Shown here: positions 20,042-52,440 of the stretch, piece by piece
How positions within the stretch are numbered: the first letter of the stretch is position 1
How the letters are laid out: each line of letters starts with the position of its first letter
Position numbers and translations under genes: made by a program
NCBI GenBank assembly: GCA_918797485.1
Contig: CAKKNE010000005.1
Span: 2,480,001-2,544,000 of the forward strand
DNA from: Pelagomonas calceolata
Lineage: Eukaryota
Direction: 5' to 3'
DNA length: 64,000 bases
Notes under the pieces: model-generated
Told to the model about the DNA's origin: nothing
Databases searched by the model: none
Seen by the model: only the letters and a program-made list of their open reading frames with translations

Positions 20042-22276
20042 TTAAACAAACGGCCGCCCCGCCTCGAACGTCACGCGCTCGCTAGTCTCCGGATGCGGCA
20101 GCGCGAGCGACGCCGCGTGCAGACATAAACCGCCGCCCGGTGTCGCGTAGAGCGGGTCGCCGACGATGGCGTGCCCCGCCGCGAGGCAGTGGACGCGGAG
20201 CTGGTGTGACCGGCCCGTGAGCGGCTCGAGCCGGAGCAGCGACGTCTCGTCGCCGCTCTCCAGGGCCTCCCAGCGCGTGCGGGCGCCCTTCGCGCCCTCT
20301 TCACTTTCTTCCGCCGCGCGGTACCGCGGCTTGCCGTCCTTTTGCCGTGCTACAGCGTCCGCCGTGATGGCGGCCGTCCACTCGCCGCTGCCACTTAGCC
20401 GCCCGGCCACGCGCGCGACGTACGTCTTCCGCGTGTCGCCGGCGTCGCCGTCCGTCGACTTGCGGAAGGCGGCGCACAGCGCTGATGCGGCGGCGGTGGT
20501 GCGCGCGAAGACCAGGACGCCGCTAGTCTCATAATCAAGACGATGAACGGGCCGCAGGTCGCGGTCGCCCGCCGCGGCGCGCGCGAGGGCCAGCGCGTTC
20601 GGCGCCTCTTCATCGTTGTCGGGCGCCGCCAGCGCCTTGGCCGCGTCGTCGAGCTCGCGCCACAGCGTCCCGACGGCCGCGTCGTCGACGGCGCCGACGC
20701 GGCCCCGCGCCCGCTGCACGTGGGCCCGGAACTTGTCCTCGCGCCGCGGGATCGACGCCAGCGAGCCCACGCCGTTCAAGAGGCGGCCCGCGAGCGACTC
20801 GGCAGAAGCTTCGTCGCGCGCCCGCGCCAGCGCCTCCTCCCAGTACTCGCCGGCGCGCTTCCGCTTTTTCGTCGGCGCCGGCGCGTCGGGGTGGCGGCCC
20901 GGCACGGACAAGAGGTCCCGCGGCTTATTCACGACGACGAGCGACGCGTCGACGTGGAGCAGCTCGATCGTGTGCCTTATCTTCTCCACCACGCCGAGAA
21001 TCAGCTCGTTCGGCACCGGCAGCGACAGATTGTATTGAGCCAGCTTCCCGCCAATTATGACGCCCGTGCTCCGGCACCGGCCGAGATTCGCGTTGTTCAG
21101 CACCTCGTCGAACGCGACCACGCCGTCGCTCACTTCGTCGCAGCGCCGCGCGACGACGGTGTAGGCCCACGTGTTCCCCGTGGCGAATCTCTGACGCGCG
21201 TACTGGAGGAAGGCGTCGCGCGCCCACCGCTCCTCGGCCGCCGTGCCGAAGAAGACGAACGCGTCCGCCGCGAGGGCCTCGAGCGCGTCGCCGTCGCCGC
21301 GCGCGCAGGCCGCGTGCCACGCGTCGAGGGCGTCGGCGGCGGCTCTAGTACTACGAGCGCCGTCGACGGCGGGTGTTTCGTCGACGCGGACCTCCACGTA
21401 TGCCACGGCCGACGAGCCAAGGTCCACGAAGTCGTGACCGCTCATAGGGCTTCGCATCCGCACGACGTGTCGCGTGCCGGAGCGCGCCAGCGGGAACGAC
21501 AAGGTAGCTACCCGCGAACATTCGTCCGGCGTCGGCGTCGTCGCGGCGCCGAAGCGCATCGAGGCGCCGTCGCGCGTGAGCTTGTCGAGCGCCGCCGCCG
21601 GGAAGGGCCGGATGCCGCTCGGCCGGTGGCCCAGCCACACGTTGACGAGGAACGTGTAGCGCTTGCCTCCTCCGCTCGTAGTGAGAGCCCGCGGCGCCGC
21701 GTGCAAACAACGCCCGTCGAAGACGAGGTGGCGGCCGACGCGCGGCGCGCACGCCGCCGCGGCGTCGACGGGGCCGTCGGCGATGGCGCCCGTGAACGAG
21801 TCCGGTCGCTTGTCGAGGACCACCGTCGGCGCGCCCCCCTCAGAAAGGTACGTCACCGTCGCGAGCTGCGGGAAGACGTACATGCCGTGCAGCGTGTGCG
21901 CCTGCTCGTCCTTGTCCCAGTGGAAGCAAACCTCCCGTGCCGCTTCTTGGTTTGCCGTCGGGTCCTTGACCTGGGCCCACCACTCGACGCCGGACTTGGG
22001 GTCCGCGGCATGCGGCGACGCTGCGGCGTGCTTTCTAAAAATCTCCAGGGCCACGGCTTCGAGCGCGCAGCGCGGGCTCTCGCCCGCGCCGAGCCAGAAG
22101 GTGTCCTGCGGGACAAGCGGGCTCGCGACGAACTCTAGATCACGTTTCAGCTCCTCCAGGCGCTCGCACTGCAGCGCTTCGTCGTAGCACCGCGTTTTTA
22201 AGTCGAGGTGTTCTGTCGTCCCTTCGATCGTGCCGTTGTGCGCGATGGCGACGCAGAAGTCGTCGTCGAGGCTCAT
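20042..22276 (-). CDS. Three-domain fusion: 2OG-Fe(II)-like + SnoaL/NTF2-like + RluA-family pseudouridine synthase
   Basis: EWWAQ..FHWDKDE..ATVTYL..LH; then LDAWHAAC..FFGTAAEERW..FDEVL..GRCRSTGVI..QYNLS; then VNKPRDLLSVPG, HRLDYETSG, TGRSHQLRVH. One uninterrupted ORF. Confidence 0.8.
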   Translation of the reverse strand: MSLDDDFCVAIAHNGTIEGTTEHLDLKTRCYDEALQCERLEELKRDLEFVASPLVPQDTFWLGAGESPRCALEAVALEIFRKHAAASPHAADPKSGVEWWAQVKDPTANQEAAREVCFHWDKDEQAHTLHGMYVFPQLATVTYLSEGGAPTVVLDKRPDSFTGAIADGPVDAAAACAPRVGRHLVFDGRCLHAAPRALTTSGGGKRYTFLVNVWLGHRPSGIRPFPAAALDKLTRDGASMRFGAATTPTPDECSRVATLSFPLARSGTRHVVRMRSPMSGHDFVDLGSSAVAYVEVRVDETPAVDGARSTRAAADALDAWHAACARGDGDALEALAADAFVFFGTAAEERWARDAFLQYARQRFATGNTWAYTVVARRCDEVSDGVVAFDEVLNNANLGRCRSTGVIIGGKLAQYNLSLPVPNELILGVVEKIRHTIELLHVDASLVVVNKPRDLLSVPGRHPDAPAPTKKRKRAGEYWEEALARARDEASAESLAGRLLNGVGSLASIPRREDKFRAHVQRARGRVGAVDDAAVGTLWRELDDAAKALAAPDNDEEAPNALALARAAAGDRDLRPVHRLDYETSGVLVFARTTAAASALCAAFRKSTDGDAGDTRKTYVARVAGRLSGSGEWTAAITADAVARQKDGKPRYRAAEESEEGAKGARTRWEALESGDETSLLRLEPLTGRSHQLRVHCLAAGHAIVGDPLYATPGGGLCLHAASLALPHPETSERVTFEAGRPFV

Positions 22277-22486: not shown

Positions 22487-22638
22487 GAAGATCCACGCGT
22501 GGGAGCCCTAGAAACCGCGCCCCGGGGACGGTATCTCGGCGCTTGGATGGACGGGGAAACCCGTACGCAGGATCGCGTCGAAAAAAATACTGAAAAAGTC
22601 ATTTACACGATGATACTAATAATTGCGAGCCCCGACAA

Positions 22639-25600
22639 TCAGAGCTCCTCCGACACGAGGTCGGGCGGCGGCGGCGACGGCGGCCGCGGCACAAGCGGCG
22701 CTTCACTTTTTTTAACGACGTCGCCGGACGGCGCGCGCGGCGTCGGCACGGGGTCCGGCCGCTTCGTCTCGGCCACTGTTTCTCCCCTAGGCGGCGCTGA
22801 AAACGAGAAGTCCTTCCACGCGTTGTTCGACCGCAGTCTCCTGATTTCCTCGTCGTCGCCCGCCAAGGACGCCGTTTGCCTTGATATCCGAGCCTCACGA
22901 GAGGTCTGCGGCTGCGCGGCCGCGTCCGAATCGTGGAACTCGTCGGCGATGGACGCGGCCCGGCGATCCGTGACCCGCCGAGGTACATAAGCGATATCCG
23001 CCGCATGCTCGAGCGCGGGCACCCAGGGCGGCGGCAGGCGCCGCTGCTCCAGAGCTTCCCAATCGATAGCTTCGAAGTACTTTTGGTGCTTGATCTCATC
23101 TTCGCCCCGATGCATATCTGAAGAATCGCGGTCCACGCCGACGGTCGTCGTATCGGAATTAGTCTTGCCCATCATCCTGCCTAGTAGTCCAGTTCGCTGT
23201 GGAGGTGTTTCGTCGGAAGGCGGCTCTTCGACCGTCGTCAGTCGTTTGACGCCGAACCTTCGCTCCGGCCGCTTCTCCAGCAGGTTCGTCAGCAACTCAA
23301 TCAACTCGTTCGAAAAGTCCAACGGAAACGGCGGCGGCAGATGTAATATCGCGTAGAACATGCGCCGTCGATTCTGGTCCTCGAACGGAGGTCGGCCGGA
23401 AGCCATCTCGAAGATGAGTGCGCCGAGCGCCCACCAGTCCACCGACGTGCCGTAGGCGTGGCCTACGAGTAATTCGGGAGCCATGTACGTCACCGTGCCA
23501 CAAAACGATCGGAGGGGCGCGCCGTCCTCGTGGACACCCAAGGCGCACAAACCAAAATCCGTCAGGGCGACGTCGCCTCTGGAGTCGAGCAAGACGTTGC
23601 CCGGTTTTAAGTCGCGGTGGACGACACCGGCGGCGTGGCAGTGGCGTAGAGCGCACACTAATTCTGCGCCGTAGTATAGCGTTCTTGGATCTCCTAATCC
23701 GGTAGGATGGGCGTCGTCCAGGTGCCGCTCTAGGGAGCCACCGGCGTAGAAATCAGTAACCAAGTACAATCGAGCTCGAGACTGGAACGCGTAGCGCAGT
23801 CGCACGACAAATGGATGCCTTAGTGAGGCGAGAGTTTGTCGCTCGGCTCTGGTATGGGCCGCCTGTCCCGTGTTCCGCACGACCTCCTTATCCAACACTT
23901 TCACGGCGAAGGCCCGCCCGTGCTCCGTTCCCGCGGTCTTCGTCGCCAGTAAAACTCGACCGAAAGCCCCCTTGCCGATGACGTGAGTGACTTCGAAGTC
24001 CCCGACTTTGGTAGAAGCTCGCCTTTTAGCCGTCGAGGGCGGCCGACTATTGGTCGAGGAGGGCGTGTCCGGCGGCGGGCCGGGCGGCGGCGGCGGCGGC
24101 GGCGGCGGCGGGCCGCGCGGCGTCGCCCGCGCGCCCCGTAGTTGATTATCATACACCTCCCAGTCGTCGGGAGACTTCGGCGGGGTCCGCAGTCGTCCCC
24201 TATCGCTCTGCGACTGCGCGTCCTTCCGGATCTGATCAATCTCGGACCCGCGCCGCGCAAATGCTAAAACATCGGCCGGCCAGCCGCTCGCGTCGTCCAA
24301 GACGCCGCCCAACGAATCCTGGGGGTCGTCCAGTAGTAATTCAGCGTCGCCGTCGACGCCCCAGGCCGTATCTAACCTGCCTAACTCGACGTCGGCCTCC
24401 TTCGTGTCCTCTGAATCTAAATTGGCGCGCTTCACTTGTGTCCGTGGCCGTCTCCACATAAATGCGACGCAGCAGCAGATCAGCGCCGCGGCGGCGACGC
24501 ACACGATGATGATGATGTACAGCAAGCTGTTGTTCGAGGAGGACTTCTTGCTGCTCTTCAGCGACGTCGGCGCCGCCGTCGGCGCTGGCGAAGGTTTTGG
24601 TGAAGGCGCTGGCGACGTCGTCGGCGAGGCCGTCGACGGCATCGGCGTCGTCGGCTCGGGGCTTATGGACGGCGCCGGCGACGGCGGGATGAAGGTCGTC
24701 GGCGCGAACGTGGGCGGCACGGACGGGAACTCCGTCGGGTTTGACGAGGGTTTTGGTGTCACCGTCGGCGCGGCCGTCGGGTGGAAGTCGAACATCCGTA
24801 TGGAGTCGAGCGCGAAGTCCGAGAGGGCGCCGGAGCCGGTCGTCGCGACGAAGGAGACGTATGACGTACCGGGAGGCAGGTGGACGACGGCCTCCTCCCA
24901 GACTCTGGCAGGATTATCTCCGGAGACGGACCATAATTCAACTTCAGTGTAGTCGTTCTCATCGACGCAGTCGTAGGTCCAGCACCCCGTGACCGTGACC
25001 TGTAAGGTACCTAGGTCGGCGCCGTACATCATGTAGGCGAAGCCCAGGGCCACTTCGCACGACGGCGGCCAGAGCCAATCACCCAGACTAGAAGGGTACG
25101 TCGGCGAGTCCAGCCGGAACACTTTCGAGGGATAGGCGTTGTCCGCCATCTGATTCGAGCGGAACGTCCCCGAATTGTCGCACCGCACGAACGCCCACGG
25201 CTGGTCGGGGCCCTCTGAACTCTCGAGCGCGCCCGTTTCAAGACCATCGGCCTTCGACGTGTCCGACCGCGACCAGCACCGCTCAAAGCCGCCGAGGCAC
25301 ACGAAGTCGTCCTCCACAATATCGTAGAACTCGCCGCCCTTCCAATCTCCCCACCCTTCACCGCCGTCGCTCACCTCGAAGCTCACGGCGAGGGGCCACT
25401 GCGCTTCTAGATCGGCGACTCTACAATATAATGTAGGCGCGGCCGTCGTCGGCACGGCCGTCGTCGGCTTTGGTGTGGGCATGCCTGTCGGTACGTTCGT
25501 GGGCACCTCGCTCGGCGCTGCGGTGGGTTCCGCGGTCGTGGGCCTGGCCGTCGTCGGCTTTGCTGTAGTCGGCGCGGCCGTCGTGGGCCGCGCCGTCGAA

Positions 25601-25761
25601 GGCGCCGCCGTCGTGGGTTGTGGAGTCGTGGGCCGCGCCGTCGACGGCGCGGCCGTCGTCGGCCGCGCGGTCGTCGGCGCCGGCGTGGGCCGCGGCGTCG
25701 GATCTTGGGCGACGGCTAGGCCGACCAGGGCGACCAGCGCCAGCTGGCGCGCCCTCGCCAT
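22639..25761 (-). CDS. Receptor-like kinase: signal peptide, P/T stalks, MAM domain, TM helix, AGC-group Ser/Thr kinase
   Basis: Signal MARARQLALVALVGLAVA; MAM-like FAYMMYGADLGTLQV..W.VSG..DFALDSI; TM LLYIIIIVCVAAAALICCCVAFM; kinase IGKGAFGRV, HRDLKPGN, DFG, SFCGTVTYMAPE, VDWWALG; AGC tail PPPWVP..WKDFSF. Confidence 0.9.
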   Translation of the reverse strand: MARARQLALVALVGLAVAQDPTPRPTPAPTTARPTTAAPSTARPTTPQPTTAAPSTARPTTAAPTTAKPTTARPTTAEPTAAPSEVPTNVPTGMPTPKPTTAVPTTAAPTLYCRVADLEAQWPLAVSFEVSDGGEGWGDWKGGEFYDIVEDDFVCLGGFERCWSRSDTSKADGLETGALESSEGPDQPWAFVRCDNSGTFRSNQMADNAYPSKVFRLDSPTYPSSLGDWLWPPSCEVALGFAYMMYGADLGTLQVTVTGCWTYDCVDENDYTEVELWSVSGDNPARVWEEAVVHLPPGTSYVSFVATTGSGALSDFALDSIRMFDFHPTAAPTVTPKPSSNPTEFPSVPPTFAPTTFIPPSPAPSISPEPTTPMPSTASPTTSPAPSPKPSPAPTAAPTSLKSSKKSSSNNSLLYIIIIVCVAAAALICCCVAFMWRRPRTQVKRANLDSEDTKEADVELGRLDTAWGVDGDAELLLDDPQDSLGGVLDDASGWPADVLAFARRGSEIDQIRKDAQSQSDRGRLRTPPKSPDDWEVYDNQLRGARATPRGPPPPPPPPPPGPPPDTPSSTNSRPPSTAKRRASTKVGDFEVTHVIGKGAFGRVLLATKTAGTEHGRAFAVKVLDKEVVRNTGQAAHTRAERQTLASLRHPFVVRLRYAFQSRARLYLVTDFYAGGSLERHLDDAHPTGLGDPRTLYYGAELVCALRHCHAAGVVHRDLKPGNVLLDSRGDVALTDFGLCALGVHEDGAPLRSFCGTVTYMAPELLVGHAYGTSVDWWALGALIFEMASGRPPFEDQNRRRMFYAILHLPPPFPLDFSNELIELLTNLLEKRPERRFGVKRLTTVEEPPSDETPPQRTGLLGRMMGKTNSDTTTVGVDRDSSDMHRGEDEIKHQKYFEAIDWEALEQRRLPPPWVPALEHAADIAYVPRRVTDRRAASIADEFHDSDAAAQPQTSREARISRQTASLAGDDEEIRRLRSNNAWKDFSFSAPPRGETVAETKRPDPVPTPRAPSGDVVKKSEAPLVPRPPSPPPPDLVSEEL

Positions 25762-26371: not shown

Positions 26372-26962
26372 ATGGCCGCCACGTCAAAGCGCTGGGGCGC
26401 GGGCCCACCTTCTGTTGATGACTTTGATGAATTAGTGTTCGACTTCGAGCCGTTTATCGCCGACATCCTGCCGCCGATGTCGATCACGGGGCATCACCAG
26501 TCGGAAAAAGCCCGACGCGAAGCGATCGAGCGCGCCGCGGTCTCGGCCCCGGCGGGCATGTCGCACCAGAAACTGGCGGAAAAGTACCGCACCGTCGTCT
26601 GCCGCCACTGGCTCCGGGGTTTGTGTATGAAAGGAGACAATTGCGAATTTTTGCACCAGATGGACATGGACCGCATGCCGGTGTGTCGGTGGGGCGAGAA
26701 CTGTCGCATCAAGGACTGCCCCTACAAGCACGAGGCCGAGGCCGACAAGCCGCAGTGCGTGTTTTATCAACAGGGGTTCTGCTACCACGGGCCCGAGTGC
26801 CGCTACCGCCACTGGAAGCAGGCGGCGGACAAGCGGCCGGCCATCGCCGACTTTAGCCTGGGCATCGCGCAGGGTCGGGACTTCAAACAAGCGGCCGCGG
26901 AGCGGCGGCGGCCGAGCGAGGCGCGGCCCGTGGGGATGCCGTCTTACGCTCTGCGGGGCTAA
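26372..26962 (+). CDS. CCCH zinc-finger protein, CPSF30/YTH1-like
   Basis: FDFE, then TVVCRHWLRGLCMKGDNCEFLH and two further CCCH fingers. Confidence 0.85.
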   Translation: MAATSKRWGAGPPSVDDFDELVFDFEPFIADILPPMSITGHHQSEKARREAIERAAVSAPAGMSHQKLAEKYRTVVCRHWLRGLCMKGDNCEFLHQMDMDRMPVCRWGENCRIKDCPYKHEAEADKPQCVFYQQGFCYHGPECRYRHWKQAADKRPAIADFSLGIAQGRDFKQAAAERRRPSEARPVGMPSYALRG

Positions 26963-27716
26963 GTCGTCTTGTGTGTAGTTCTTTCTCCTTCTCCTGGTCG
27001 CGGCCCAATGTGTAGCGTTCCTGGGCGCGCCAGCTATCGAGGGCAAGAGGCCGAGGGCAAGGCCGAGCTGTGGCTGTGGAAACACGTCGAATTCAGCCTA
27101 TATAACCCCCCTAGATTAGCCCAGGTCCACCCCCGCGTCGTTATCATATCTTCAGTAGTACTTCTTGCTATTGCGAGCGCGCGCGCGGCCGCGCGCGCGC
27201 TACACTGGTCAGAGATATGAAGCCAAGTTGATTTTTTGCCTTGGCCGCGCGCCGCGCGGACGCGCCGGGTCCAAGCTACCCACACGCGGCTCTCTGAAGG
27301 CCTCGTCGGCCGCGCCACGCACTCCTCGTTCCCCCGCCCGGTGGAGCTCGCGGTTCGCCCGCCTTCAATATCCGGCCGCGGCGAAACCGCCCCAGAGTTC
27401 GCCATCGCCGTCAAGGGTTCGCGTCGCAACTGAAAATTACCGCTCTCGTCCAAGTTGTCGCTCGAACGCAGGTGCTCGCGACCTGAAGACGAAGAAGACC
27501 AAGCGCTCGACCCCCGCCAGCCACAGCGCGTCGCCGCGAAGAAAGCACTGGTCTCCTCGCGCCCCCGCGGTCCGCGCGCGCTCCGCGCCGTCGCCGCGAG
27601 CGAGCCCGCGGCGACGCCTTCGCGAACACACACCTCCCACCGGCACGCAGTCGCCGCAAGCACGCTTCCGCGCCGCGGACGCGCCCCAGGGGCTCATGTT
27701 TTGCGACGCAGGCATC

Positions 27717-28676
27717 ATGTACATGCGCGCCGCCCTTCTGGCGCTCGCCCTCGGGCAGGCCTCGGCCCTGCTCAGTTCGCCTCCGAGCGACGACAAGCAC
27801 GCGTCGGCCCTGACTTCGCCTCCGAACGACGACAAGCACGCGTCGGCCCTGAGTTCGCCTCCGAGCGACGACAAGTTCGCCGTCCTTCGTGGGCTCGACG
27901 ACGCGCAGGTGATGGCCGAGGTTGCGCGGCGGAACCTGAACGCGTGCGACGGCGCGCCCCCTCAAGAACATCGCGCGCTGGCTGAGCTGCACTACTCTTT
28001 CAAGTACGAGTGCGAGTGCGACCCGACGCCGGAGCCGACGCCGGCGCCGTCGCCCTCTCCGACGGTCTCTCCCACGATTACGACTACGACGTCGACGAAG
28101 TGCGAGACGCACTTCCACTTTTCTGGCGAACACAAGGACTACCATGCGTGCCGGAATTATTGCGAGCATAAACATCCAATTGGGGACTGGCAGCTCCCGT
28201 GCCTCTACGACGAGCACGTGGACCTGGCGCTCGAAGCTGAGATGAGCGCCTACCCGTGCGGAATCATTTTCAAGGCCACAATTCTCACTCACTAGTCGAT
28301 GTACCACACAGAGTCGAGGGAGTTGAAGGGCGTCTGGCTCCCTTTCACTCGATATTATTATAATAAGTACTGGTCGTATCACAAGCACAAGTGGATTACA
28401 AAAACGAAGTGGAAGTGGGAAGGTTGCAAAGATATGCACGGACACGCGTACTGCGTGAAAGAAGGAAGCCACGTGCATGAGTGCGTGCCTAAGGAAAACA
28501 GCCACGGGGAAGGCCCACCGTACTTCCGCTGGGAGCCCGGTGAGCCTAACACTTCGGGCGGGTACGTCCGGAAGTCGTTCGCATCTGGCCACGACTGGGA
28601 GCATAACGGTGGGATGGCCGACATCAAGGGCGATTGTGTGGACTTCGAGTGTGTCTGCCAGAAGAAATGCCATTAG
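27717..28676 (+). CDS. Secreted C-type-lectin-like protein, one intron
   Basis: Signal peptide, 3x SPPSDDK, PT stalk, then YHACRNYC..LPCL..GVWL..WKWEGC..RWEPGEPN..CVCQK. The in-frame TAG at 28293 is removed by a proposed intron at 28246-28311. Confidence 0.7.
27774..27875 (+). repeat. 39-bp coding tandem repeat, ~2.6 copies
   Basis: Unit AGTTCGCCTCCGAGCGACGACAAGCACGCGTCGGCCCTG encodes SSPPSDDKHASAL. Confidence 0.9.
28246..28311 (+). mobile_element. Degenerate introner-derived intron, probably GC-AG (66 nt)
   Basis: CCGTGCGGAATCA...CTCACTAGTCGATGTACCACACAG resembles the family ends. A GC lies exactly 8 nt before the left TIR, and splicing gives EAEMKSRELKGVWL. Confidence 0.55.
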
Positions 28677-40978: not shown

Positions 40979-43900
40979 ATGCCGTCGCCGAGCATGAGCG
41001 CGTCGCGCACGCCGTCGCGCGCCGTCGGCCGCCTCTTTGGTCTGGACGCCTCGCAGCCGCGGCACCAGGCTCCTCCTGTTGATGACGACTGGGACGACGA
41101 CCACGACGAAGACGCCTTCTACGAGAGTACACGAAGGCGGAGCGACGCGTCGCGGTCGGCGTCGCGGTCGCGCACGCCGCGCCGGTCCCTCAGTCGACGA
41201 AGGAGGTCGTCGGCCACGCAGTCGCCCAACGTCCTGAGGGAGCCACATAAAGCACACAGCAAGACGTGGCGGCCGCCCGGCGCCGCCCACGCTTCCCAGA
41301 GGACGCTGCCGCCCGCGCCATCTAGAACTGAGGGACGGCCCCTGACCTTCGACGTCGACGCGCTGCAGAAGGACCACGCCATCATTGTCGATCAAGTGAT
41401 TGAGCAATTAACGCGGGGCAACGCCCTGAGCGTGTCTTCCTTAACATTAGCGGAACCTCAAAAATTCGGCGCGGTCTACGACCGCCTCCAGGCGGAGCTC
41501 GAGCGGGTCCTCGATAGTAGGGAGGACAGCACGCCGGCGGACGCCGCGCGGTCGCGCGACGTGCAGCACATCGTCTCCATCCTCTTTTCTTTAGTGGAAC
41601 ACGAGCGGTCTTCATTTTTATTCTCGATGTCTTCATTAAGGGAGACGGTCAAGCGGCGCGAGGGCCGGCTGGCGGCTAGAGCATCGTCCGAACTGTCGCA
41701 GGGGCTCCAGCGGCGCCTGAACGCCGGCGCGGCGCTCCTCACGGCGTTGACGCGCGTCGCGTTGGAAGAAAGGCCGACGCGCCGGGCCTGGAGCAAGTGG
41801 CGCTTGTATACCGCACAAAGCATCAGCGCGTCACGGTGCGCTGCTTTAGAGACGGCATTGAGGTTCGCCGCGGGCCAGTCCGAGGAGGCCGCGCTGCGGG
41901 AGCAGGAAGCGCGCGAAAAACTTTTGAAGCGCGTCGCGAGTCGGTGGCTGAACATGGAGAAGCACGGCATCTTTGACCGGTGGAACGAGTGGCGCCGGGA
42001 ACGAGTCTACGTGAGGCAGCTGGCTAAAAGAGTTCTGGGGCGGATGATGCACGGGAAAGTGGCCTCAGCACTAGCGTCGTGGGTGAGGATGGTGCAGGTG
42101 TGCAAGGAGGAGGAATCGGAGAAGAAGCGCCAGGAGGTCATCCTCCAAAGAGTAAGGGCGAAGTGGCTCCTTGGCTCGTTATCAAGAGTCATGAACCGGT
42201 GGTGCGAGATGGTCTCCGAAAGGAAGCACATGCGTCGACTCGTGAAGAAGGTCATCGGCCAGCTCATGAACGGGTTGAGCGGGAGTGCCTTCCGGACGTG
42301 GACGTGCAACGTGACGGAAATGAAGGCCCAGGAGGAGGAGGCCAAGCGCCAGGCCGTCATTTTTGAGAGGATACGCAAGAGGTGGCTCAACCAGACGACG
42401 GGCGCGGCCTACCGGTCCTGGCTCGAGTTCGTGTATGAAAGGAAGCGCATCCGAGGTCTCGTGAACAAGGTGGTAGGGCAGCTCATGCACGGTTTGGAAA
42501 GTTCCGCGTTCCGAGCTTGGTTGGAGAACATGAAGGCCATGGACGAAGCAAAAGAGGAGGAGCAGCGCATGCAGCGGATCCTGGACAAGGTCCGGCGGAA
42601 CTGGCTGATGGCCGGCGTGAACAGCGCGTTCCGGCGGTGGAACGAGTATCGGGGCGAGCGGCGGCAACTGCGCAAACTGGCCACAAAAACGATCCAGCAG
42701 ATGTTGAATAATCGCGTGCTGCCAGCATTTAAAGAGTGGGTCAATAAGGTCGAATTGTTTAAGCGGGCGGATTATCTGATGCGCAAGGTGATGGGGCAGT
42801 TATTACATGGGCTGACCGGGTCCGGGTTCCGGTCGTGGTGTGGCGTCATTACTCAAATGAAGCAAGAGGAACACGAGGCGCAGCTTGAGAAGTGTCGCCG
42901 GCTCGAAGCCCAACTCCAAGAGAAAGAGGACGAAATGCAGGCCATCGAGCAGGCGAGGATCCAAAGTTTGATGAGCCGCGTCGCTCTACGCCTAAAGAAC
43001 GGCGGCTTACTGAAAGTATGGGCGCGCTGGGAGGAGCTCGTCTACGACCGTAAATTGATGAGGAAGGTCGTCGGTCAATTGCTACACGGGTTGACTGGTG
43101 TTGCCTTCCGGTCGTGGTTTGCGTTCGTCGAAGAGCAGGAGCGAGCAGAACAGGAAGCGGCGCGGCACGACGCGATCTGCGCCAAGTTCGTCGCGCGCAT
43201 GCGCCTCGTCTCCGCCTCGAAAGCCTTAAATTCCTGGCGCGAGAACGCGCACGAGCGGAAAAGATTAAGGCGCCTCATGCAGCACGTCCTGACGCGATTG
43301 ATGAAAGGCAGGCTCGTGCCCTCACTAAGTCAGTGGCGCGCCGCCGCGACGGCGCTGCGATTGGAGGCGCGCGAGAAGGAACGGCAACAAAAGCTCCTCG
43401 ACCGCATGCGCCGGCGCATGCAACACAAGTGCATCTTCTCGGCGCTCCTCGCCTGGGACCACTTCGTGGGCGAGCGGAAAAGATTAAGGGCCCTCGCGCT
43501 GCACGTCCTGAACCGCTTGTCGCGGGGCAAGGTCGTTTTGGCTGTAGATAGGTGGCGCGCGGTTTTACGAGAGGAGAAGCAAAACGAGCTGAAACACGAC
43601 CGAGTCGAAAAGTTGATGCGGCGCGTCGCGCTCCGTCTAAAAAACGCGGGCTTCGTCAAGGTCTGGGGCGCCTGGGAGGAGTTCGTCTGGCAGCGGCGGA
43701 CGCTGCGGGCGCTCACTCACAGATTTATCGACGGCAAGGTCGCGGCGGCGCTATTCACCTGGAGGGAGGAACGGCGCTGCGGGATCATTCTCGAGAGGTT
43801 CGGAAGGCGGCTGCGGTTCGCTTGTGTCTCCAAAGCATTAACGACGTGGATTCTTTATAGAAGAGAGCGGAAACGCGTGCGCGCGCTCATGACGCACATC

Positions 43901-46555
43901 CTGGTCACGCTCAAGCATGCCTTAGCGCACAAGGCCTTCGGGACCTGGCTCGCCTACGAACATGAGGAGCGGCGGCTCGAGAATGTGGGAAAGCGGGTCC
44001 TCGTCATGCTGACGCGCGGCTGCCTTTTAAGGTGCTTCCACGCCTTGCAGGCGGAGCGCGATGAAAGGAGGAGGTTGAGGGAAATTGTGAAGAGAGCCGT
44101 GCGCCAGATGCGCCAGGGCAAGCTGGGTTTGGGTTGGCGGTGCTGGCGCGAGGTTGTGGTCCAAGGTCGACTCCTGGGCGACGTCGGCGCGCGGCGCCTG
44201 GCGCTCATGCGCGTTTGTAGGTTTGTGCGCCATTCTCTAGTCGTGAGCTTTTCCACGTGGCGGCGGGGCAGCACGTTGCTCGTCTCGCACGCTTACGAGG
44301 ACTACAAAATGAGGGACGAGCACTGGCGCGAGAAGCGAGCTCTACAAATGTGGACGGACAACGTCGCGGGGCGGTGCTTCGATACTTGGAGGGAGGTAAT
44401 CCGGACGGAGAAGAGGGAGCGCGTGGCCCTCTACCGCCACTCACTAAGAGTGAACAAGCGCGTCCGCCTCGACATCTTCACGAAGTGGGATCGCATGCGA
44501 CGGGACCGGCGGCTCGCGCGGTCCGTGCTGAGTAGGATGATCCACGTCGCTGTTGATGGTACCACAAGAGCAGCAATAGATATCTGGCGGGACCAGGCCT
44601 TTGATATGCGGCGGCACGAGGCCGTGTTGGATAGAACCAGAAGGCGGTGGCTCCACCGGACGGCCACGAAGTCCTTTGAGCGGTGGCGCGAGTACGTTTT
44701 AGTGAGGAAGCACGTGAAGACCGTGGCGCTCCACGTCCTCCAGCGCCTCGCGCACAGCAACGCGGCGCCGGCGTTTATTCAGTGGCGCGACCAGACGCGG
44801 CGTTTGGCCCATTGCGACCACCTGGTCGGAAGTGCCTTGGCGCGCATGCGCCACGCCTGCGCAGCTAGAGCTTTCGTGGGGTGGGTGCACCGCTGGGAGG
44901 AATCGAAGAGGCGGACCGACCTCCTGACGCACATTGTGATGAAATTACTACATGCGAAGCTGGCGCCGGGCTTCCGGAAGCTCGTGGCTTGGGCCTTGGA
45001 TTACGATAGGCGCGCGCTCGCGCGGGAGCGCACAGATAGGTTACTGCGGCGCGTCGTCGCCGTCTTCGAGCACACGCGATTGAACGAAGGGCTCAACGGC
45101 TGGAAGCGGTTCACTTTCTTGAGGAGGGAGGCCGAGGAGAAACAGGTAAGGCAGGACGTCATCCTGGACAGATGTAGAAGGCGCCTGCGCCACTCGCTGC
45201 TCGGAAGGTCGTACAACCAGTGGGTCTTCTACAAGCGGGACCGGAAGCGCCTCCGGACGCTGGCGCGGAGGATAGTAAAACAGTTCTACAACAACGAGAC
45301 CTGGCCGGCCCTGAACACGTGGAAGGCCTTTGTCGTGCGGCAGCGGTCCTTAGAACGGCTCATGCATAAAGTAATCGGGCAGCTGCAGCACCGGCTCACG
45401 AGTACGAGCTGGAGGACCTGGACCACGACCGTACGAAGGGCGGTCCGCTACGAGACCATAATCGATAGATCCAGAAGGAAGTGGCTCTACCACGCGCAAG
45501 CCAAAGCTCTCACGGCGTGGTGCTTCATGGTCTCGGAGCGCCAGCGGCTGCGGAACCTCGTGAAGAAGGCCTTCTACCGCATGCGGGCGTCGAAGTTAGG
45601 TAGAGGCTTCCGGACGTGGGCGCGCATCGTCGAAGCGGGCCGCACGACTTTAGTGAGGGACGCGGCAGCATCAGCAAAGACGGCGGCGCGCTACTGGTTC
45701 GACGCGGCCGAATTAAGGAGCGAGCACGTGTTGCGGCGGAACGCGTTTGGGGCGTTCAAGCAGCTGAGGAGGCGGCGCGCGCAGAATCGATTGAGAGCCG
45801 CGCGGTGGGCGCGGGCGTTGAAGAGGCGGCGGACGCGGGGCGTCTTCGAGAACTGGAGAAGGTACGGTAAACTAAGGATGCTGCAGGTGCCGGGGAAGTT
45901 AAGGGCGGCCTTGAGGGTGGCGCACGACGAGTGCGCGCGGCAATTAAGGAGGGGCTTTTCCATCTGGTTGCACGGCGTGGACGTGGCGAAATTGGAGGAG
46001 GCGAGAAAAGCGGCGCAGGGCGCGTCGCGGCTGCAGCGCCTCGACAAGGCATTGGTGGCCATCGAATACACGCAGTATCAGTTGGTAAGGAAGGTCTTCG
46101 TGGCGTGGACCGACGTCTTCCTCCACCGGAAGCGGAGCGGGCGCCTGACGTCCTTCGTGGGGGTCGCGCTGGCCCGCGCGACGATGATCAAGGCGTACCA
46201 CGCCTGGGGCCGCTACGTCGAGAGCCACCGCCGCGTGCGCCGCACGCTCAAGACGCTCTCGACGCGCAAGCACGCGACGAACTGTTTTCGGGCCTTCGGC
46301 CGCTGGCACGCCTACTCGGCGTCGCTGCCGGCCGTCGGCGCGGACTTCGTCGCGGGCTTCGCCGTGCCGCCTCCGCCCTGCGACGACTCCGACGAGGACG
46401 TGACGCTCACGCCGCCGCCGCCGCCTTCTGGATTGTTCTCTTCCGGTCCATCCTACGCGTCGACGCCGACGGCCGCGCAGCCGTACTTCGACGACGATCC
46501 GGCAGCTGGCGCGACGCTCTACGAGAGCCCGGTCGGGCGCGCGGTGGAGTACTAG
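40979..46555 (+). CDS. Sfi1-like repeat protein (candidate centrin-binding fibre protein), 1858 aa
   Basis: Dozens of basic helical repeats ending (A/G)FxxW, e.g. KVIGQLMNGLSGSAFRTW and KVVGQLLHGLTGVAFRSW. Confidence 0.7.
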   Translation: MPSPSMSASRTPSRAVGRLFGLDASQPRHQAPPVDDDWDDDHDEDAFYESTRRRSDASRSASRSRTPRRSLSRRRRSSATQSPNVLREPHKAHSKTWRPPGAAHASQRTLPPAPSRTEGRPLTFDVDALQKDHAIIVDQVIEQLTRGNALSVSSLTLAEPQKFGAVYDRLQAELERVLDSREDSTPADAARSRDVQHIVSILFSLVEHERSSFLFSMSSLRETVKRREGRLAARASSELSQGLQRRLNAGAALLTALTRVALEERPTRRAWSKWRLYTAQSISASRCAALETALRFAAGQSEEAALREQEAREKLLKRVASRWLNMEKHGIFDRWNEWRRERVYVRQLAKRVLGRMMHGKVASALASWVRMVQVCKEEESEKKRQEVILQRVRAKWLLGSLSRVMNRWCEMVSERKHMRRLVKKVIGQLMNGLSGSAFRTWTCNVTEMKAQEEEAKRQAVIFERIRKRWLNQTTGAAYRSWLEFVYERKRIRGLVNKVVGQLMHGLESSAFRAWLENMKAMDEAKEEEQRMQRILDKVRRNWLMAGVNSAFRRWNEYRGERRQLRKLATKTIQQMLNNRVLPAFKEWVNKVELFKRADYLMRKVMGQLLHGLTGSGFRSWCGVITQMKQEEHEAQLEKCRRLEAQLQEKEDEMQAIEQARIQSLMSRVALRLKNGGLLKVWARWEELVYDRKLMRKVVGQLLHGLTGVAFRSWFAFVEEQERAEQEAARHDAICAKFVARMRLVSASKALNSWRENAHERKRLRRLMQHVLTRLMKGRLVPSLSQWRAAATALRLEAREKERQQKLLDRMRRRMQHKCIFSALLAWDHFVGERKRLRALALHVLNRLSRGKVVLAVDRWRAVLREEKQNELKHDRVEKLMRRVALRLKNAGFVKVWGAWEEFVWQRRTLRALTHRFIDGKVAAALFTWREERRCGIILERFGRRLRFACVSKALTTWILYRRERKRVRALMTHILVTLKHALAHKAFGTWLAYEHEERRLENVGKRVLVMLTRGCLLRCFHALQAERDERRRLREIVKRAVRQMRQGKLGLGWRCWREVVVQGRLLGDVGARRLALMRVCRFVRHSLVVSFSTWRRGSTLLVSHAYEDYKMRDEHWREKRALQMWTDNVAGRCFDTWREVIRTEKRERVALYRHSLRVNKRVRLDIFTKWDRMRRDRRLARSVLSRMIHVAVDGTTRAAIDIWRDQAFDMRRHEAVLDRTRRRWLHRTATKSFERWREYVLVRKHVKTVALHVLQRLAHSNAAPAFIQWRDQTRRLAHCDHLVGSALARMRHACAARAFVGWVHRWEESKRRTDLLTHIVMKLLHAKLAPGFRKLVAWALDYDRRALARERTDRLLRRVVAVFEHTRLNEGLNGWKRFTFLRREAEEKQVRQDVILDRCRRRLRHSLLGRSYNQWVFYKRDRKRLRTLARRIVKQFYNNETWPALNTWKAFVVRQRSLERLMHKVIGQLQHRLTSTSWRTWTTTVRRAVRYETIIDRSRRKWLYHAQAKALTAWCFMVSERQRLRNLVKKAFYRMRASKLGRGFRTWARIVEAGRTTLVRDAAASAKTAARYWFDAAELRSEHVLRRNAFGAFKQLRRRRAQNRLRAARWARALKRRRTRGVFENWRRYGKLRMLQVPGKLRAALRVAHDECARQLRRGFSIWLHGVDVAKLEEARKAAQGASRLQRLDKALVAIEYTQYQLVRKVFVAWTDVFLHRKRSGRLTSFVGVALARATMIKAYHAWGRYVESHRRVRRTLKTLSTRKHATNCFRAFGRWHAYSASLPAVGADFVAGFAVPPPPCDDSDEDVTLTPPPPPSGLFSSGPSYASTPTAAQPYFDDDPAAGATLYESPVGRAVEY

Positions 46556-50123: not shown

Positions 50124-51113
50124 TTACCTTAGTATTACCAGCGCGGCGAGCAGCAGCCACCACGGCCTCCTTGTGGCCGCGCCGTTCACGTTGCAGTACC
50201 CACCGTCCTTCGCCGTCGAATCCTTGTCGATCTTTTTGGTCGTGTCGTCGTCGAGGTATTTCTTTGGCTCCTGCACGTCCGTCTTGCCCTCCTTCGCGTA
50301 GACGCACGTCCACCCCGGGAAATCCTTCTCGCAGTCCTTCTTGCAATCTTTCGCGGGGTAGCCGCCGTCGACGTGGTGCCTGGCCTCCATCTCGGCGTCT
50401 CCCGGCCAAGACGTCTCGGGGTTCAGCTCGTCGGATGAGCCGCAGCAGCAGGCGCACGCGCTCTGGCCGAAGCAGCCCGTGTCGAGCGCGGCGTCGTAGC
50501 AGCAGAGGCACTGCGGGGTGTCCAGAAAATCGTCGGCCATCGTCGGCCGCGGCGAGGGCGCGCCCATCTGCAGCCCCAGGCGGCCGAACGGCTCGCCGTT
50601 GAGCACGTTCTCCCCTCGGAACCAGTTGCTCGCGGTCATCTCCGTGCCGGAATTGGCGAGCTCGCAGTCTTTCGCGAGGAAGCCGTCGAGCTGCGTCTGG
50701 TCGGCGCCGTCCCGGACGCCGAACGAGTCCCAGTTGCCCAGGTCCTCCTTGATGGCCCAGACGCACGCTGTTTTACAACTCGGCTCGGCGAGGTTCGTGC
50801 AGCGCGCGCCGGCCATGCCCCCCTCGGCCGTCGAGGGCCCGAGGCAGTCGCGGCACGCCTGCAGGAGGCAGTCGATCGCGTCGGCGGCGGCCGTGCTCGC
50901 GAGCGCGACGCACGTCGGCGCGGCCGTATTGGTCGGCCTGGCCGTCGTCGGCGCGGGCGTCGGTCGCAGCGACGGTGCGGGCGTCGTCGCGGGCGACGAC
51001 GCGCCGGCCACCGTCGGCCGCCACGTCGTGAACGTGGGCGCCTGCGTCGGCGACTGCGCCTCCGCCGCGTAGGCCCACAGCGCGGCCAGCGCGAGCCGCC
51101 CCATCCGGGGCAT
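50124..51113 (-). CDS. Secreted or GPI-anchored Cys-rich protein
   Basis: Signal peptide, PT-rich stalk, many Cys, hydrophobic C-terminus WWLLLAALVILR. Confidence 0.7.
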   Translation of the reverse strand: MPRMGRLALAALWAYAAEAQSPTQAPTFTTWRPTVAGASSPATTPAPSLRPTPAPTTARPTNTAAPTCVALASTAAADAIDCLLQACRDCLGPSTAEGGMAGARCTNLAEPSCKTACVWAIKEDLGNWDSFGVRDGADQTQLDGFLAKDCELANSGTEMTASNWFRGENVLNGEPFGRLGLQMGAPSPRPTMADDFLDTPQCLCCYDAALDTGCFGQSACACCCGSSDELNPETSWPGDAEMEARHHVDGGYPAKDCKKDCEKDFPGWTCVYAKEGKTDVQEPKKYLDDDTTKKIDKDSTAKDGGYCNVNGAATRRPWWLLLAALVILR

Positions 51114-51417
51114 GGCTCGGGCGCCTGCTAGGCGTGGTGCGCCGTCGAGGCAGCCGTATTTATTCTTCTCGTCGCACGGATGATGCGTGCTTACCAGGAG
51201 CCGTGCGATTCGGGGCAGCACGGCCGGTTTGTGTCCAGCGGCGCTGCCACCAAAAGCTGCCCCCGGCCGGCCGAAGACGGTGGTCCGCGAGTTGTCCGGA
51301 CGCCGCCCTAGGGGCTCTTGGGAAAAATAGACTCTATGGAATGGCCAGAGTGTGCGATCCTGGAGGCGCGGTAAATCCGCCCGCGACGCTCCGACACGAG
51401 ATAAACAAACAGCCCAC

Positions 51418-52440
51418 TTATGTCGGGTCCCAGGCGTAGTCCGGCGACGCGATGATGCGCGCGTGGGCCGCCAGGGACGCCTCGACGCCGCGGCGCGGGT
51501 CGCGGAGCGCGTCGAGCCGCGCGACCTGGTCGGCCGTGAGCGCGACGTCGTCCAGGCAGCGCGCCGTCGCGCGGACGCGCTCCGGGTCGAGGCTCTTCGG
51601 GATCGGCGCGGCGCCCTTGGCCATGGCCCAGGCCACGCAGGCCTGCGCCGGCGTGCACCCGGCCTCGGCCGCGACGGCCGCGACCGTCGCGTCGTCGAGG
51701 ACGCTTGCTGCGGGCCAGGGCACGAAGGACGGAAAGTACTTTGCCAGCCAACAGGTCCCATATGGAGAATATCCCACGACGCGCACGCCCCGCGCCTCGC
51801 ACGCCGCCATTAGCTCCTCCTGGTAGCACCGGGGAGATACTTCGACCTCGTTGAGGACAGGCCGGTGCCGGGCGAGCGCGATGATCTCATCCATGAGCTC
51901 CACGTCAAAATTCGACAGCCCGAGGCAGCCGACAAGACCCTCGTCGACCATGGCCTCGAGCTCGCGCCACGCGTCGGCGCGCACTGACCGCGCGTCGTCT
52001 TCAGAAGCCGGCGCATCTAGGAGGAGTGGCCAATGCAGGGCGACAGCGTCGAGGCGCCCAAGCTTTCGCTTCGATTCCGTCACCTGGCGCCGCATGCGCC
52101 GCCGCGGGTCCTCCCGGCTCCGCGTGCAGAGGTCGACTTTGCATCTGTGCGAAAATCAACCAGTGAGTCGGGGGCTCGGCCGTGGAGGTCGTGATTCATG
52201 CACTGCCTCACACAACACAAAAACGTCGTCGCGGCCGCTCCGGCGCAGGCCGTCGCCGATGGCCGCCTCGCTGCCGTAGTTCTGCGCCGTGTCGATCATG
52301 AGCACGCCGCTGCGCACGGCCGCGTCGACCGCGCTCGCCATCGCCTCGTGCGGCGGGCCCTCGGCGCTGCCGAGACCCAGGCGCGGGATGGCGACTGCTG
52401 CCGCGGTTTGGGCCATGACTGCCAGCGTCGTCAGCCGCAT
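51418..52440 (-). CDS. Aldo/keto reductase, one intron
   Basis: Exons 52440-52214 and 52144-51418; IPRLGLG, IDTAQNYGSE, VFVLCKV, LHWP, LGLSNF, GYSPYG, PIPKS. Confidence 0.9.
52145..52213 (-). mobile_element. Introner-derived intron (69 nt)
   Basis: The 3' end CTCACTGGTTGATTTTCGCACAG matches the opposite TIR end of the 29570 element (CTCACTGGTTCGGTTTCCACGCAG). It contains an in-frame stop that splicing removes. Confidence 0.7.

What the first reader, a model, noticed from the sequence alone, without database searches (positions are those of the whole stretch)
22639..25761. Single-pass receptor with a MAM ectodomain and an AGC-group kinase
Seen in one uninterrupted 1040-aa ORF: signal peptide, PT stalk, MAM-like domain, PT stalk, TM helix with a CCC cluster, polyproline, and an intact kinase with AGC hallmarks (SFCGT activation loop, VDWW, PPPWVP, WKDFSF hydrophobic-motif-like tail). 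Established: AGC kinases (S6K, SGK, Akt) are normally cytosolic, and MAM receptors are known with tyrosine kinase (ALK) or phosphatase domains. Inference: an independently evolved receptor kinase class, possibly feeding TOR/PDK1-type signalling.
Basis: partly seen in the sequence, partly recalled or inferred. Interest (0 to 1): 0.75.

Follow-up and report, generated by a model that had tools for sequence, protein, structure and literature searches.

The report
Algal surface receptor with AGC kinase
In tiny marine pelagophyte algae, one expressed and conserved gene joins an outside MAM domain, a single membrane-spanning stretch and an Akt/S6K-like (AGC) kinase, a kinase type that normally works inside the cell, so it likely acts as a surface receptor that passes an outside signal straight to this kinase.

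Summary
Confirmed. The minus-strand ORF 22639-25761 (1040 aa) encodes a signal peptide, a Pro/Thr stalk, a MAM domain, a second stalk, one TM helix and an intact AGC kinase with turn and hydrophobic motifs. The MAM domain passes the Pfam cutoff and its model best matches solved MAM domains (Z 17.8). Stranded polyA RNA covers the ORF with one polyA site and no intron; reads do not bridge the polyproline repeat. MAM (whole or part) + TM + kinase recurs in one frame in 8 distinct 90%-identity clusters; named members are pelagophytes (CCMP2097, Aureococcus). All parts are under purifying selection. The kinase nests among soluble stramenopile AGC kinases; 0 of 184 non-family kinases fetched had an upstream TM. 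I found no paper describing it. Ligand, location and activity are untested.

The parts
22639..25761 (-). Whole ORF, 1040 aa, intronless: signal peptide - PT stalk - MAM - PT stalk - TM - juxtamembrane linker - AGC kinase - AGC tail
   Evidence: stranded RNA over the ORF with no intron joint; intact single ORFs in L001 and L002
25708..25761 (-). Signal-peptide-like N-terminus (aa 1-18)
   Evidence: hydropathy and pattern, similar starts in P0022, P0029 and P0028 (from an internal Met); no SignalP run
25432..25707 (-). Pro/Thr/Ala-rich stalk 1 (aa 19-110), likely O-glycosylated
   Evidence: composition; PT stalks also occur in other secreted ORFs of the window
24778..25431 (-). MAM domain (aa 111-328); six of its seven Cys are kept in all aligned relatives that cover them
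   Evidence: Pfam above cutoff; AF2 pLDDT 81, pTM 0.84; Foldseek top hit neuropilin-1 MAM; VIA Z 17.8 to 8yt7 MAM; Cys columns
24526..24777 (-). Pro/Thr/Ser-rich stalk 2 (aa 329-412)
   Evidence: composition
24454..24522 (-). Single transmembrane helix (aa 414-436) with Cys cluster (possible S-acylation, inferred), followed by basic residues
   Evidence: KD19 3.19; equivalent helix (KD19 2.6-3.6) in all 8 family proteins examined for flanks
24322..24354 (-). Conserved juxtamembrane motif 1 (DxDA-x-hydrophobic-DDP, aa 470-480)
   Evidence: pattern in 10 of 10 family proteins, 0 of 186 other kinase hits
24253..24300 (-). Conserved juxtamembrane motif 2 (LDxxxGWP..L.FAR, aa 488-503)
   Evidence: aligned in 8 of 8 rows; pattern absent from 186 other kinase hits
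24148..24168 (-). Conserved juxtamembrane motif 3 (DDWxxYD, aa 532-538)
   Evidence: aligned in 8 of 8 rows; the strict pattern matched 9 of 10
24070..24111 (-). Polyproline run (aa 551-564)
   Evidence: sequence; the read-laying tool skipped this repeat
23236..24003 (-). AGC-group Ser/Thr kinase domain (aa 587-842), all catalytic residues present, activation-loop Ser752
   Evidence: dN/dS 0.025 against L002
23098..23235 (-). Variable insert between kinase core and AGC tail (aa 843-888), predicted disordered
   Evidence: low pLDDT; length varies across the family
22792..23097 (-). AGC C-terminal tail (aa 889-990): PxxP, likely turn-motif Ser937, conserved RISRQ motif, hydrophobic motif WKDFSF with Ser986 (22801-22818)
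   Evidence: W-x-D-F-S-F/Y in 8 of 8 family rows of alignment A5
22588..22638 (-). 3' UTR and polyadenylation site at about 22588
   Evidence: poly(T) loose ends at 22588 in 6 reads (X21) and 4 reads (X22)

Best explanation
This gene encodes a predicted single-pass membrane protein with an outside MAM domain on a Pro/Thr stalk and an inside AGC kinase with all catalytic residues, conserved across pelagophyte algae, and it likely works as a cell-surface receptor kinase. Shown: the one-gene layout, the MAM fold, AGC membership, expression, conservation and purifying selection. Inferred origin: a soluble stramenopile AGC kinase (sister to small soluble pelagophyte AGCs, within the Arb2/FYVE 'AGC/AKT' clade) was fused to a stalk-MAM-stalk-TM module of a type common in pelagophyte surface proteins, before the sampled pelagophytes diverged. 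Inferred mechanism: binding of the MAM domain to a protein ligand, or to another copy of itself, would cluster the receptors. The membrane anchor would replace the PH/PX lipid recruitment that Akt and SGK need. Clustering would then drive phosphorylation of Ser752, Ser937 and Ser986, in trans or by PDK1/TORC1, so that the WxDFSF tail docks on the N-lobe. Three conserved juxtamembrane motifs would act as an intramolecular brake or as docking sites. Its substrates are probably not classic RxRxxS/T sites.
For: Layout and domains. Kinase nearest to Akt2, S6K1, SGK1 and RSK among PDB sequences; model matches PKC and Akt. One polyA site, no intron and similar depth on both sides of the TM-kinase linker in 4 runs of one sample. 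MAM (whole or part) + TM + kinase in one frame in 8 distinct 90% clusters; MAM identity 33-42% and kinase identity 83-87% in the distant members with an intact kinase frame. Family monophyletic at 100/99, with five soluble AGCs at 100/97, within the stramenopile Arb2/FYVE clade at 98/94. 0 of 184 non-family kinases had an upstream TM. dN/dS against L002: MAM 0.32, juxtamembrane 0.17, kinase 0.025, tail 0.18. Multi-MAM proteins with Pro/Thr linkers exist in the pelagophyte Chrysophaeum. In neuropilin, MAM is described as needed for oligomerisation (PMC6387129 passages).
Against: No ligand, location or activity data exist. Short reads do not physically bridge the polyproline repeat: depth falls to 2-4 at 24054-24214, where the tool skipped a repeat. 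The ectodomain evolves much faster than the kinase, which fits a sensor but also a loose tether. The 150-310 aa flexible linker between TM and kinase makes direct allosteric coupling unlikely, so only clustering is plausible. TORC2 is reported absent from pelagophytes. The tree lacks named Akt, SGK, NDR and Aurora rows and is rooted only on CAMK-type domains.
Confidence: 0.6

Rival explanations
1. Membrane-tethered kinase with a structural or mechanical ectodomain: the Pro/Thr stalks and MAM anchor the protein to the cell covering or report wall and turgor strain (like mucin-type wall sensors or plant PERKs, both recalled), while activity is set mainly from inside by TORC1/PDK1.
For: Long Pro/Thr stalks on both sides of MAM in all full-length members; all three AGC phospho-sites kept; RAPTOR reported in all stramenopiles examined; long flexible linker between TM and kinase.
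Against: MAM keeps six Cys and family-specific stretches across 33-42% identity and has dN/dS below 1, more than a plain spacer needs; the DFG+3 phosphate-binding Lys is lost in 8 of 8 family rows.
Confidence: 0.25
2. Release by cutting: the ectodomain is shed or the TM is cleaved, and the freed AGC kinase acts in the cytosol or nucleus.
For: Long disordered juxtamembrane region and a self-contained kinase plus tail.
Against: No conserved cleavage motif was seen next to the TM; nothing direct supports it.
Confidence: 0.06
3. Pseudokinase or scaffold receptor: the domain binds ATP or partners but does little phosphotransfer.
For: Loss of three acidic substrate-pocket residues and of the DFG+3 Lys.
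Against: Gly loop, K621, E640, HRD, N722, DFG and APE are intact, apart from GPE in place of APE in the Aureococcus-cluster row; kinase dN/dS 0.025; similar KPGN and DFGLCA forms occur in fish PKC-like rows P0323 and P0326.
Confidence: 0.05
4. Two genes read as one, or an assembly chimera.
For: RNA depth dips between TM and kinase; two transcriptome-derived relatives (P0030, P0310) look chimeric with other kinases.
Against: The same fused frame occurs in independent metagenome contigs L001 and L002 at 87% and about 74% nucleotide identity and in 8 clusters. The dip coincides with the repeat the tool skipped, with no polyA or start cluster there and equal depth on both flanks.
Confidence: 0.02

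Closest known systems
Akt/PKB, p70 S6K, SGK and RSK N-terminal kinase (AGC group; PDB 8q61, 4l45, 7pue, 5d9k)
   Same: Closest catalytic domains (E about 1e-67 to 1e-59); activation-loop xFCGT site, PxxP, turn and hydrophobic motifs.
   Different: They are soluble, and Akt is recruited by a PH domain (PMC13089146 passages). This protein has a signal peptide, ectodomain and TM and no PH or PX domain. Its hydrophobic motif starts with Trp; GGE is GGS676, KPE is KPG721, GTxE is GTxT758 and DFGLCK is DFGLCA740; there is an insert of about 45 aa before the tail.
Stramenopile Arb2- and FYVE-domain 'AGC/AKT' kinases and small soluble pelagophyte AGCs (P0044, P0050, P0097, P0106, P0325, P0348)
   Same: Sister groups in the tree (98/94 and 100/97). 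The Arb2 rows share the D-x-x-YVP tail and GG(S/T)L hinge with the family.
   Different: None has an upstream TM. Domain names Arb2 and FYVE were read from the Pfam accessions by recall; the P. infestans kinome table lists both in AGC kinases.
ALK/LTK receptor tyrosine kinases (MAM-LDLa-MAM-Gly-rich-TM-TK)
   Same: Single-pass receptor with MAM outside and a kinase inside (PMC2708929 passages).
   Different: Tyrosine kinase, animals only. In a 128-species survey all 53 PF00629 hits in the stored table were in animal proteins with PF07714 kinases (file cut when stored). This protein has one MAM, no LDLa or Gly-rich region and an AGC Ser/Thr kinase: convergence, not kinship.
Receptor PTPmu/kappa, neuropilin and insect scavenger receptor C (MAM-bearing single-pass proteins)
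   Same: MAM fold, Z 12.4-17.8.
   Different: They have a phosphatase or no catalytic domain inside, and Ig/FN3, CUB or other domains outside.
Oomycete, Dictyostelium, plant and brown-algal receptor(-like) kinases
   Same: Signal peptide-ectodomain-TM-Ser/Thr kinase built by lineage-specific domain shuffling (PMC10463195, parts 1-3 of 5).
   Different: Those are mainly TKL/Pelle-type. In P. infestans all 99 TM kinases are TKL and none of the 47 AGC kinases has a TM (PMC3019232 passages). Dictyostelium's classic receptor kinases are TKL. The brown-algal case is recalled.
DMPK (AGC group) tail-anchored isoforms
   Same: An AGC kinase held in a membrane by its own hydrophobic segment (PMC2778554 abstract).
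   Different: C-terminal tail anchor on organelles, with no ectodomain: not a receptor layout.

Membership tests
AGC kinase group | Catalytic domain closest to AGC kinases | tested here: met
   The 60 best PDB sequence hits shown are all AGC kinases; nested among AGC rows in both trees; outgroup in the careful tree only CAMK-type domains
AGC kinase group | C-terminal extension with PxxP, turn motif and hydrophobic motif (hydrophobic-X-X-hydrophobic-S/T-hydrophobic, as defined in bioRxiv 2020.03.04.976555) | tested here: met
   PPPWVP 910, Ser937 (one column off the S6K turn Ser), WKDFSF 982-987; hydrophobic motif in 8 of 8 family rows; tail aligns to S6K1
AGC kinase group | Activation-loop phosphoacceptor in an xFCGT context | tested here: met
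   Ser752 aligns with the Akt2 and S6K1 TFCGT Thr
AGC kinase group | Measured Ser/Thr kinase activity switched by these sites | not testable with these tools
   Catalytic residues intact; no assay
Basophilic Akt/S6K/SGK/RSK-type kinases | Acidic residues that bind substrate Arg/Lys (hinge GGE, catalytic-loop KxEN, P+1-loop GTxE, helix-F E/D; positions recalled from PKA, principle in PMC13089146) | tested here: not met
   Three of four replaced (S676, G721, T758) in 8 of 8 family rows; E785 kept
S6K/RSK/MSK clade | Groups with animal S6K, RSK and MSK | tested here: not met
   AU test p 0.013; the group was named after the tree was seen
Akt/SGK orthologues | Groups with named Akt/SGK and carries a PH or PX domain | tested here: inconclusive
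   No PH or PX domain by Pfam; sister clade carries database labels 'AGC/AKT', but no named Akt or SGK row was in the tree
MAM domain | Pfam PF00629 above gathering score | tested here: met
   32.2 against 26.4; also above cutoff in P0003, P0022 and P0149, below it (E 9e-5 to 1e-3) in P0027, P0028, P0029 and P0031, and no hit in P0289
MAM domain | MAM beta-sandwich fold | tested here: met
   The top 7 VIA rows are MAM-containing chains, Z 17.8 (rmsd 2.3, 162 aligned) down to 12.4; first other fold Z 12.2; Foldseek agrees
Type I receptor kinase (layout) | Signal peptide + ectodomain + one TM + cytoplasmic kinase in one chain | tested here: met
   Hydropathy and positive-inside pattern, single ORF, RNA; no SignalP or DeepTMHMM run
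Type I receptor kinase (function) | Surface location and ligand-regulated kinase activity | not testable with these tools
   No data
ALK/LTK receptor tyrosine kinases | Tyrosine-kinase domain with LDLa and Gly-rich ectodomain | tested here: not met
   PF00069 scores 199.7 against 118 for PF07714; no LDLa or Gly-rich hit; AGC best hits
Plant RLK/Pelle and oomycete TKL receptor kinases | TKL-group kinase domain | tested here: not met
   Best sequence and structure matches are AGC and an AGC tail is present; no TKL rows were in the tree

The most novel reading that the evidence does not exclude
Pelagophyte algae built a true cell-surface receptor on an Akt/S6K-clade AGC kinase. Ligand-driven MAM clustering replaces the lipid-recruitment and TORC2 steps that this lineage lost, the kinase phosphorylates its own activation sites, and its substrate pocket is rewired away from basic motifs: a receptor-kinase origin outside the TK, TKL and histidine kinase groups, in some of the most abundant open-ocean algae.
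Probability: 0.35. Interest if true: 0.85.

Novelty: new variant of a known kind. Interest (0 to 1): 0.7.

Why it matters
Receptor kinases arose many times, but the described ones draw mainly on tyrosine kinases, TKLs and histidine kinases. AGC kinases are described as cytoplasmic and sit several steps below receptors. A conserved, expressed type-I receptor with a complete AGC regulatory tail shows the group can be wired directly to the cell surface. That makes it a natural experiment on whether clustering alone can activate an Akt/S6K-like kinase in a lineage without TORC2. It also converges on the ALK layout (MAM outside, kinase inside) in a single-celled alga. It gives a concrete candidate for how bloom-forming and open-ocean pelagophytes sense cells, viruses or their own covering. 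In Aureococcus the public gene model covers the kinase only, which likely explains why it was missed there.

Tried and rejected
No whole genome is held, so paralogues, PDK1, RAPTOR and RICTOR could not be searched in this organism. A second read-laying request on older assembled runs did not complete, so no RNA contig across the polyproline repeat was seen. Complex prediction (juxtamembrane motifs on the kinase) was not available; no binding claim is made. A 205-nt skip at 22939-23145 in 3+1+1 reads has TC..GG ends and 6-nt microhomology and was rejected as splicing. Loose ends at 25436/25468 come from other transcripts that share a Pro/Thr repeat word. P0030 and P0310 were left out of the trees as likely chimeras with other kinases. 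The whole-protein Atlas search returned only generic kinase clusters. Viral contigs gave two short generic kinase matches at 30-37%. Of the 146 proteins newly returned by the ectodomain search (P0143-P0288), none had a kinase domain; P0027, P0029 and P0031 were the other hits there with one. Paper searches: MAM domain + receptor kinase + stramenopile gave 0; five phrasings of 'transmembrane AGC' gave 1 paper, about guanylate cyclases; searches listed nothing on this protein by title or abstract. The Pelagomonas genome preprint has 2 'kinase' passages, both on nitrate sensors (its supplements are closed and could list the gene). Neighbouring genes (OTU, pseudouridine synthase fusion, CCCH zinc finger) are syntenic in close relatives but not in L003, so no functional cluster is claimed.
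Full report
Observation. The ORF is real at 22639..25761 on the minus strand, 1040 aa, with no internal stop. Pfam finds MAM at 180-324 (32.2 bits, cutoff 26.4) and Pkinase at 589-841 (199.7 bits). Hydropathy shows a signal-peptide-like start and one strong 19-mer at 416 (KD 3.19) followed by RRPR; the flanking stalks are 26-33% Pro and 19-31% Thr. No SignalP or TM predictor was available, so topology rests on hydropathy, charge and conservation.

One gene. Four stranded polyA runs of one sample (6-12% of each read; 1256-1733 reads laid) cover the ORF on the strand expected for a minus-strand transcript, with a poly(A) site at 22588 and no GT-AG joint. Depth falls to 2-4 at 24054-24214, where the tool skipped the polyproline repeat. 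The flanking bins are alike (21-39 and 15-38) and show no 3' end or start cluster. One run has no depth in two 5' bins. Short reads therefore do not physically bridge TM and kinase. The fused frame recurs in independent DNA: L001 (87% nucleotide, 99% amino-acid identity) and L002 (78% amino acid) are single intact ORFs. L003 holds MAM, TM and kinase at one locus split by a probable intron.

A family. MAM (whole or part), TM and kinase occur in one frame in 8 distinct 90% clusters: those of P0002, P0003, P0027, P0028, P0029, P0031, P0025/P0289 and P0306/P0411. P0031 has a truncated kinase, and P0289 and P0411 have only part of the MAM. Named members are Pelagophyceae sp. CCMP2097 (KAJ1458320.1) and Aureococcus anophagefferens, whose public model EGB06114.1 is a kinase-only partial in the P0411 cluster; the others are unnamed. 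The window is therefore most likely a pelagophyte, probably Pelagomonas (inference). Against distant members MAM identity is 33-42%, and kinase identity is 83-87% where the kinase frame is intact. Codon comparison with L002 gives dN/dS 0.32 (MAM), 0.17 (juxtamembrane), 0.025 (kinase) and 0.18 (tail); the simple counting method inflates dN. Three short juxtamembrane motifs are kept throughout an otherwise divergent linker and match none of 186 other kinase hits.

The ectodomain. An AlphaFold2 model of aa 111-330 (pLDDT 81, pTM 0.84) matches neuropilin-1 MAM first by Foldseek. By VIA-align the seven best chains all carry MAM: Z 17.8 (8yt7, rmsd 2.3, 162 aligned), 17.3, 15.9, 14.8; carbohydrate-binding modules follow at Z 11 or less. 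The Atlas gives a mostly haptophyte MAM cluster at 0.94. Multi-MAM proteins with Pro/Thr linkers exist in the pelagophyte Chrysophaeum taylorii, so the parts for the fusion were at hand (inference). The fold does not reveal the ligand.

The kinase. Best PDB sequence matches are Akt2, S6K1, Akt1, SGK1, RSK and PKC, and the model of kinase plus tail matches PKC and Akt. All catalytic motifs are intact, and the three AGC phospho-sites are kept: Ser752, probably Ser937, and Ser986 in W-x-D-F-S-F/Y, present in 8 of 8 family rows. A quick tree of 77 rows and a careful tree of 52 rows (25 long-branch or near-duplicate rows dropped, including the bacterial outgroups) agree. In the careful tree the family is one clade (100/99), joins five soluble AGCs that include Pelagomonas and Aureococcus proteins (100/97), and lies within a stramenopile Arb2/FYVE 'AGC/AKT' clade (98/94). 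A clade with animal S6K/RSK/MSK is rejected (p-AU 0.013). The tree has no named Akt, SGK, NDR, Aurora or TKL rows. None of 184 non-family kinases had an upstream TM. The family differs from Akt and S6K at four positions in 8 of 8 rows: S676, G721 and T758 replace acidic substrate-pocket residues, and A740 replaces the Lys after DFG (the roles of these positions are recalled from PKA and Akt, and the general principle is in PMC13089146 passages). These changes are not unique: S/T at 676 is shared with the sister clade, and two fish PKC-like rows also have KPGN and DFGLCA.

Mechanism. Most likely a surface receptor activated by clustering. MAM is described as an oligomerisation module in neuropilin (PMC6387129 passages) and as taking part in cell-cell interactions (PMC2708929 passages). 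The 150-310 aa flexible linker argues for proximity-driven phosphorylation rather than rigid allostery. The TM would stand in for PH/PX recruitment. [quoted passage not shown] All steps after the layout are inferred. The main rival is a tethered kinase with a wall- or strain-sensing stalk, regulated from inside.

What is known. In P. infestans all 99 TM kinases are TKL and none of the 47 AGC kinases has a TM (PMC3019232 passages). Dictyostelium AGCs are described as small and cytoplasmic, and its classic receptor kinases are TKL (PMC1420674 passages). A 128-species survey (PMC10463195: parts 1-3 of 5, part 1 of 2 of the species table, searches of its supplements) has no hit for Aureococcus or Pelagomonas, and all 53 MAM hits are in animal tyrosine-kinase proteins (the big table was cut when stored). 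Its broad protist 'clade I' contains the AGC outgroup among others, so AGC-type TM kinases in other protists are not excluded. DMPK has tail-anchored isoforms without an ectodomain (PMC2778554 abstract). My ten searches found no description of this family; subscription journals and preprint supplements were not searched. The protein itself is in public databases. The scan holds no look-alike but has an unchecked note on a membrane-anchored NDR-like kinase in a mushroom, which suggests AGC-plus-TM fusions are rare but not unique.

Verdict. Real, expressed and conserved; a new variant of the receptor-kinase kind, built on an AGC domain. Interest 0.7.

Noticed in passing
window 22639-25761 against L001 1679-4801: The two alleles or sister strains are 99% identical in protein, yet differ at up to 19% of bases per 150-nt block, nearly all synonymous; codons of about 330-450 (stalk 2 and TM) are almost identical. 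This looks like a recombination block between deep haplotypes.
   Followed up: partly
window 20042-22276 (-): 744-aa ORF joining an unnamed N-terminal domain, a SnoaL-like domain and an RNA pseudouridylate synthase; in L002 the syntenic ORF has only the synthase part, so the fusion may be recent or reflect introns.
   Followed up: partly
window 26372-26962 (+): CCCH zinc-finger gene (resembles CPSF30, recalled) head to head with the receptor gene, expressed, same arrangement in L001.
   Followed up: no
window 27696-28676 (+): Two consecutive same-frame ORFs (199 and 125 aa) separated by one stop codon and no spacer; together they look like a secreted Pro/Thr-stalk protein with a Cys/Trp-rich, lectin-like end. 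No Pfam hit; possible intron, readthrough or pseudogene.
   Followed up: no
window 40979-46555 (+): 1858-aa ORF of Trp/Arg-rich helical repeats with no Pfam hit; resembles Sfi1-type centrin-binding repeats (recalled).
   Followed up: no
window 60937-63816 (+), 57078-58541 (+), 50124-51761 (-): Further secreted or surface proteins with Pro/Thr stalks (one with a LamG domain, one Cys-rich with an internal repeat), showing the stalk is a general feature of this genome's surface proteins.
   Followed up: partly
P0030 and P0310 (transcriptome-derived): Both join the N-lobe of another kinase to this family's C-lobe at the HRD motif; likely assembly chimeras.
   Followed up: no
P0027, P0028, P0029, P0289, P0149: Most distant family members carry an extra Cys-rich insert (C-x3-C-x2-C) inside the MAM domain that the window's protein lacks; a candidate ligand-binding loop.
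   Followed up: no
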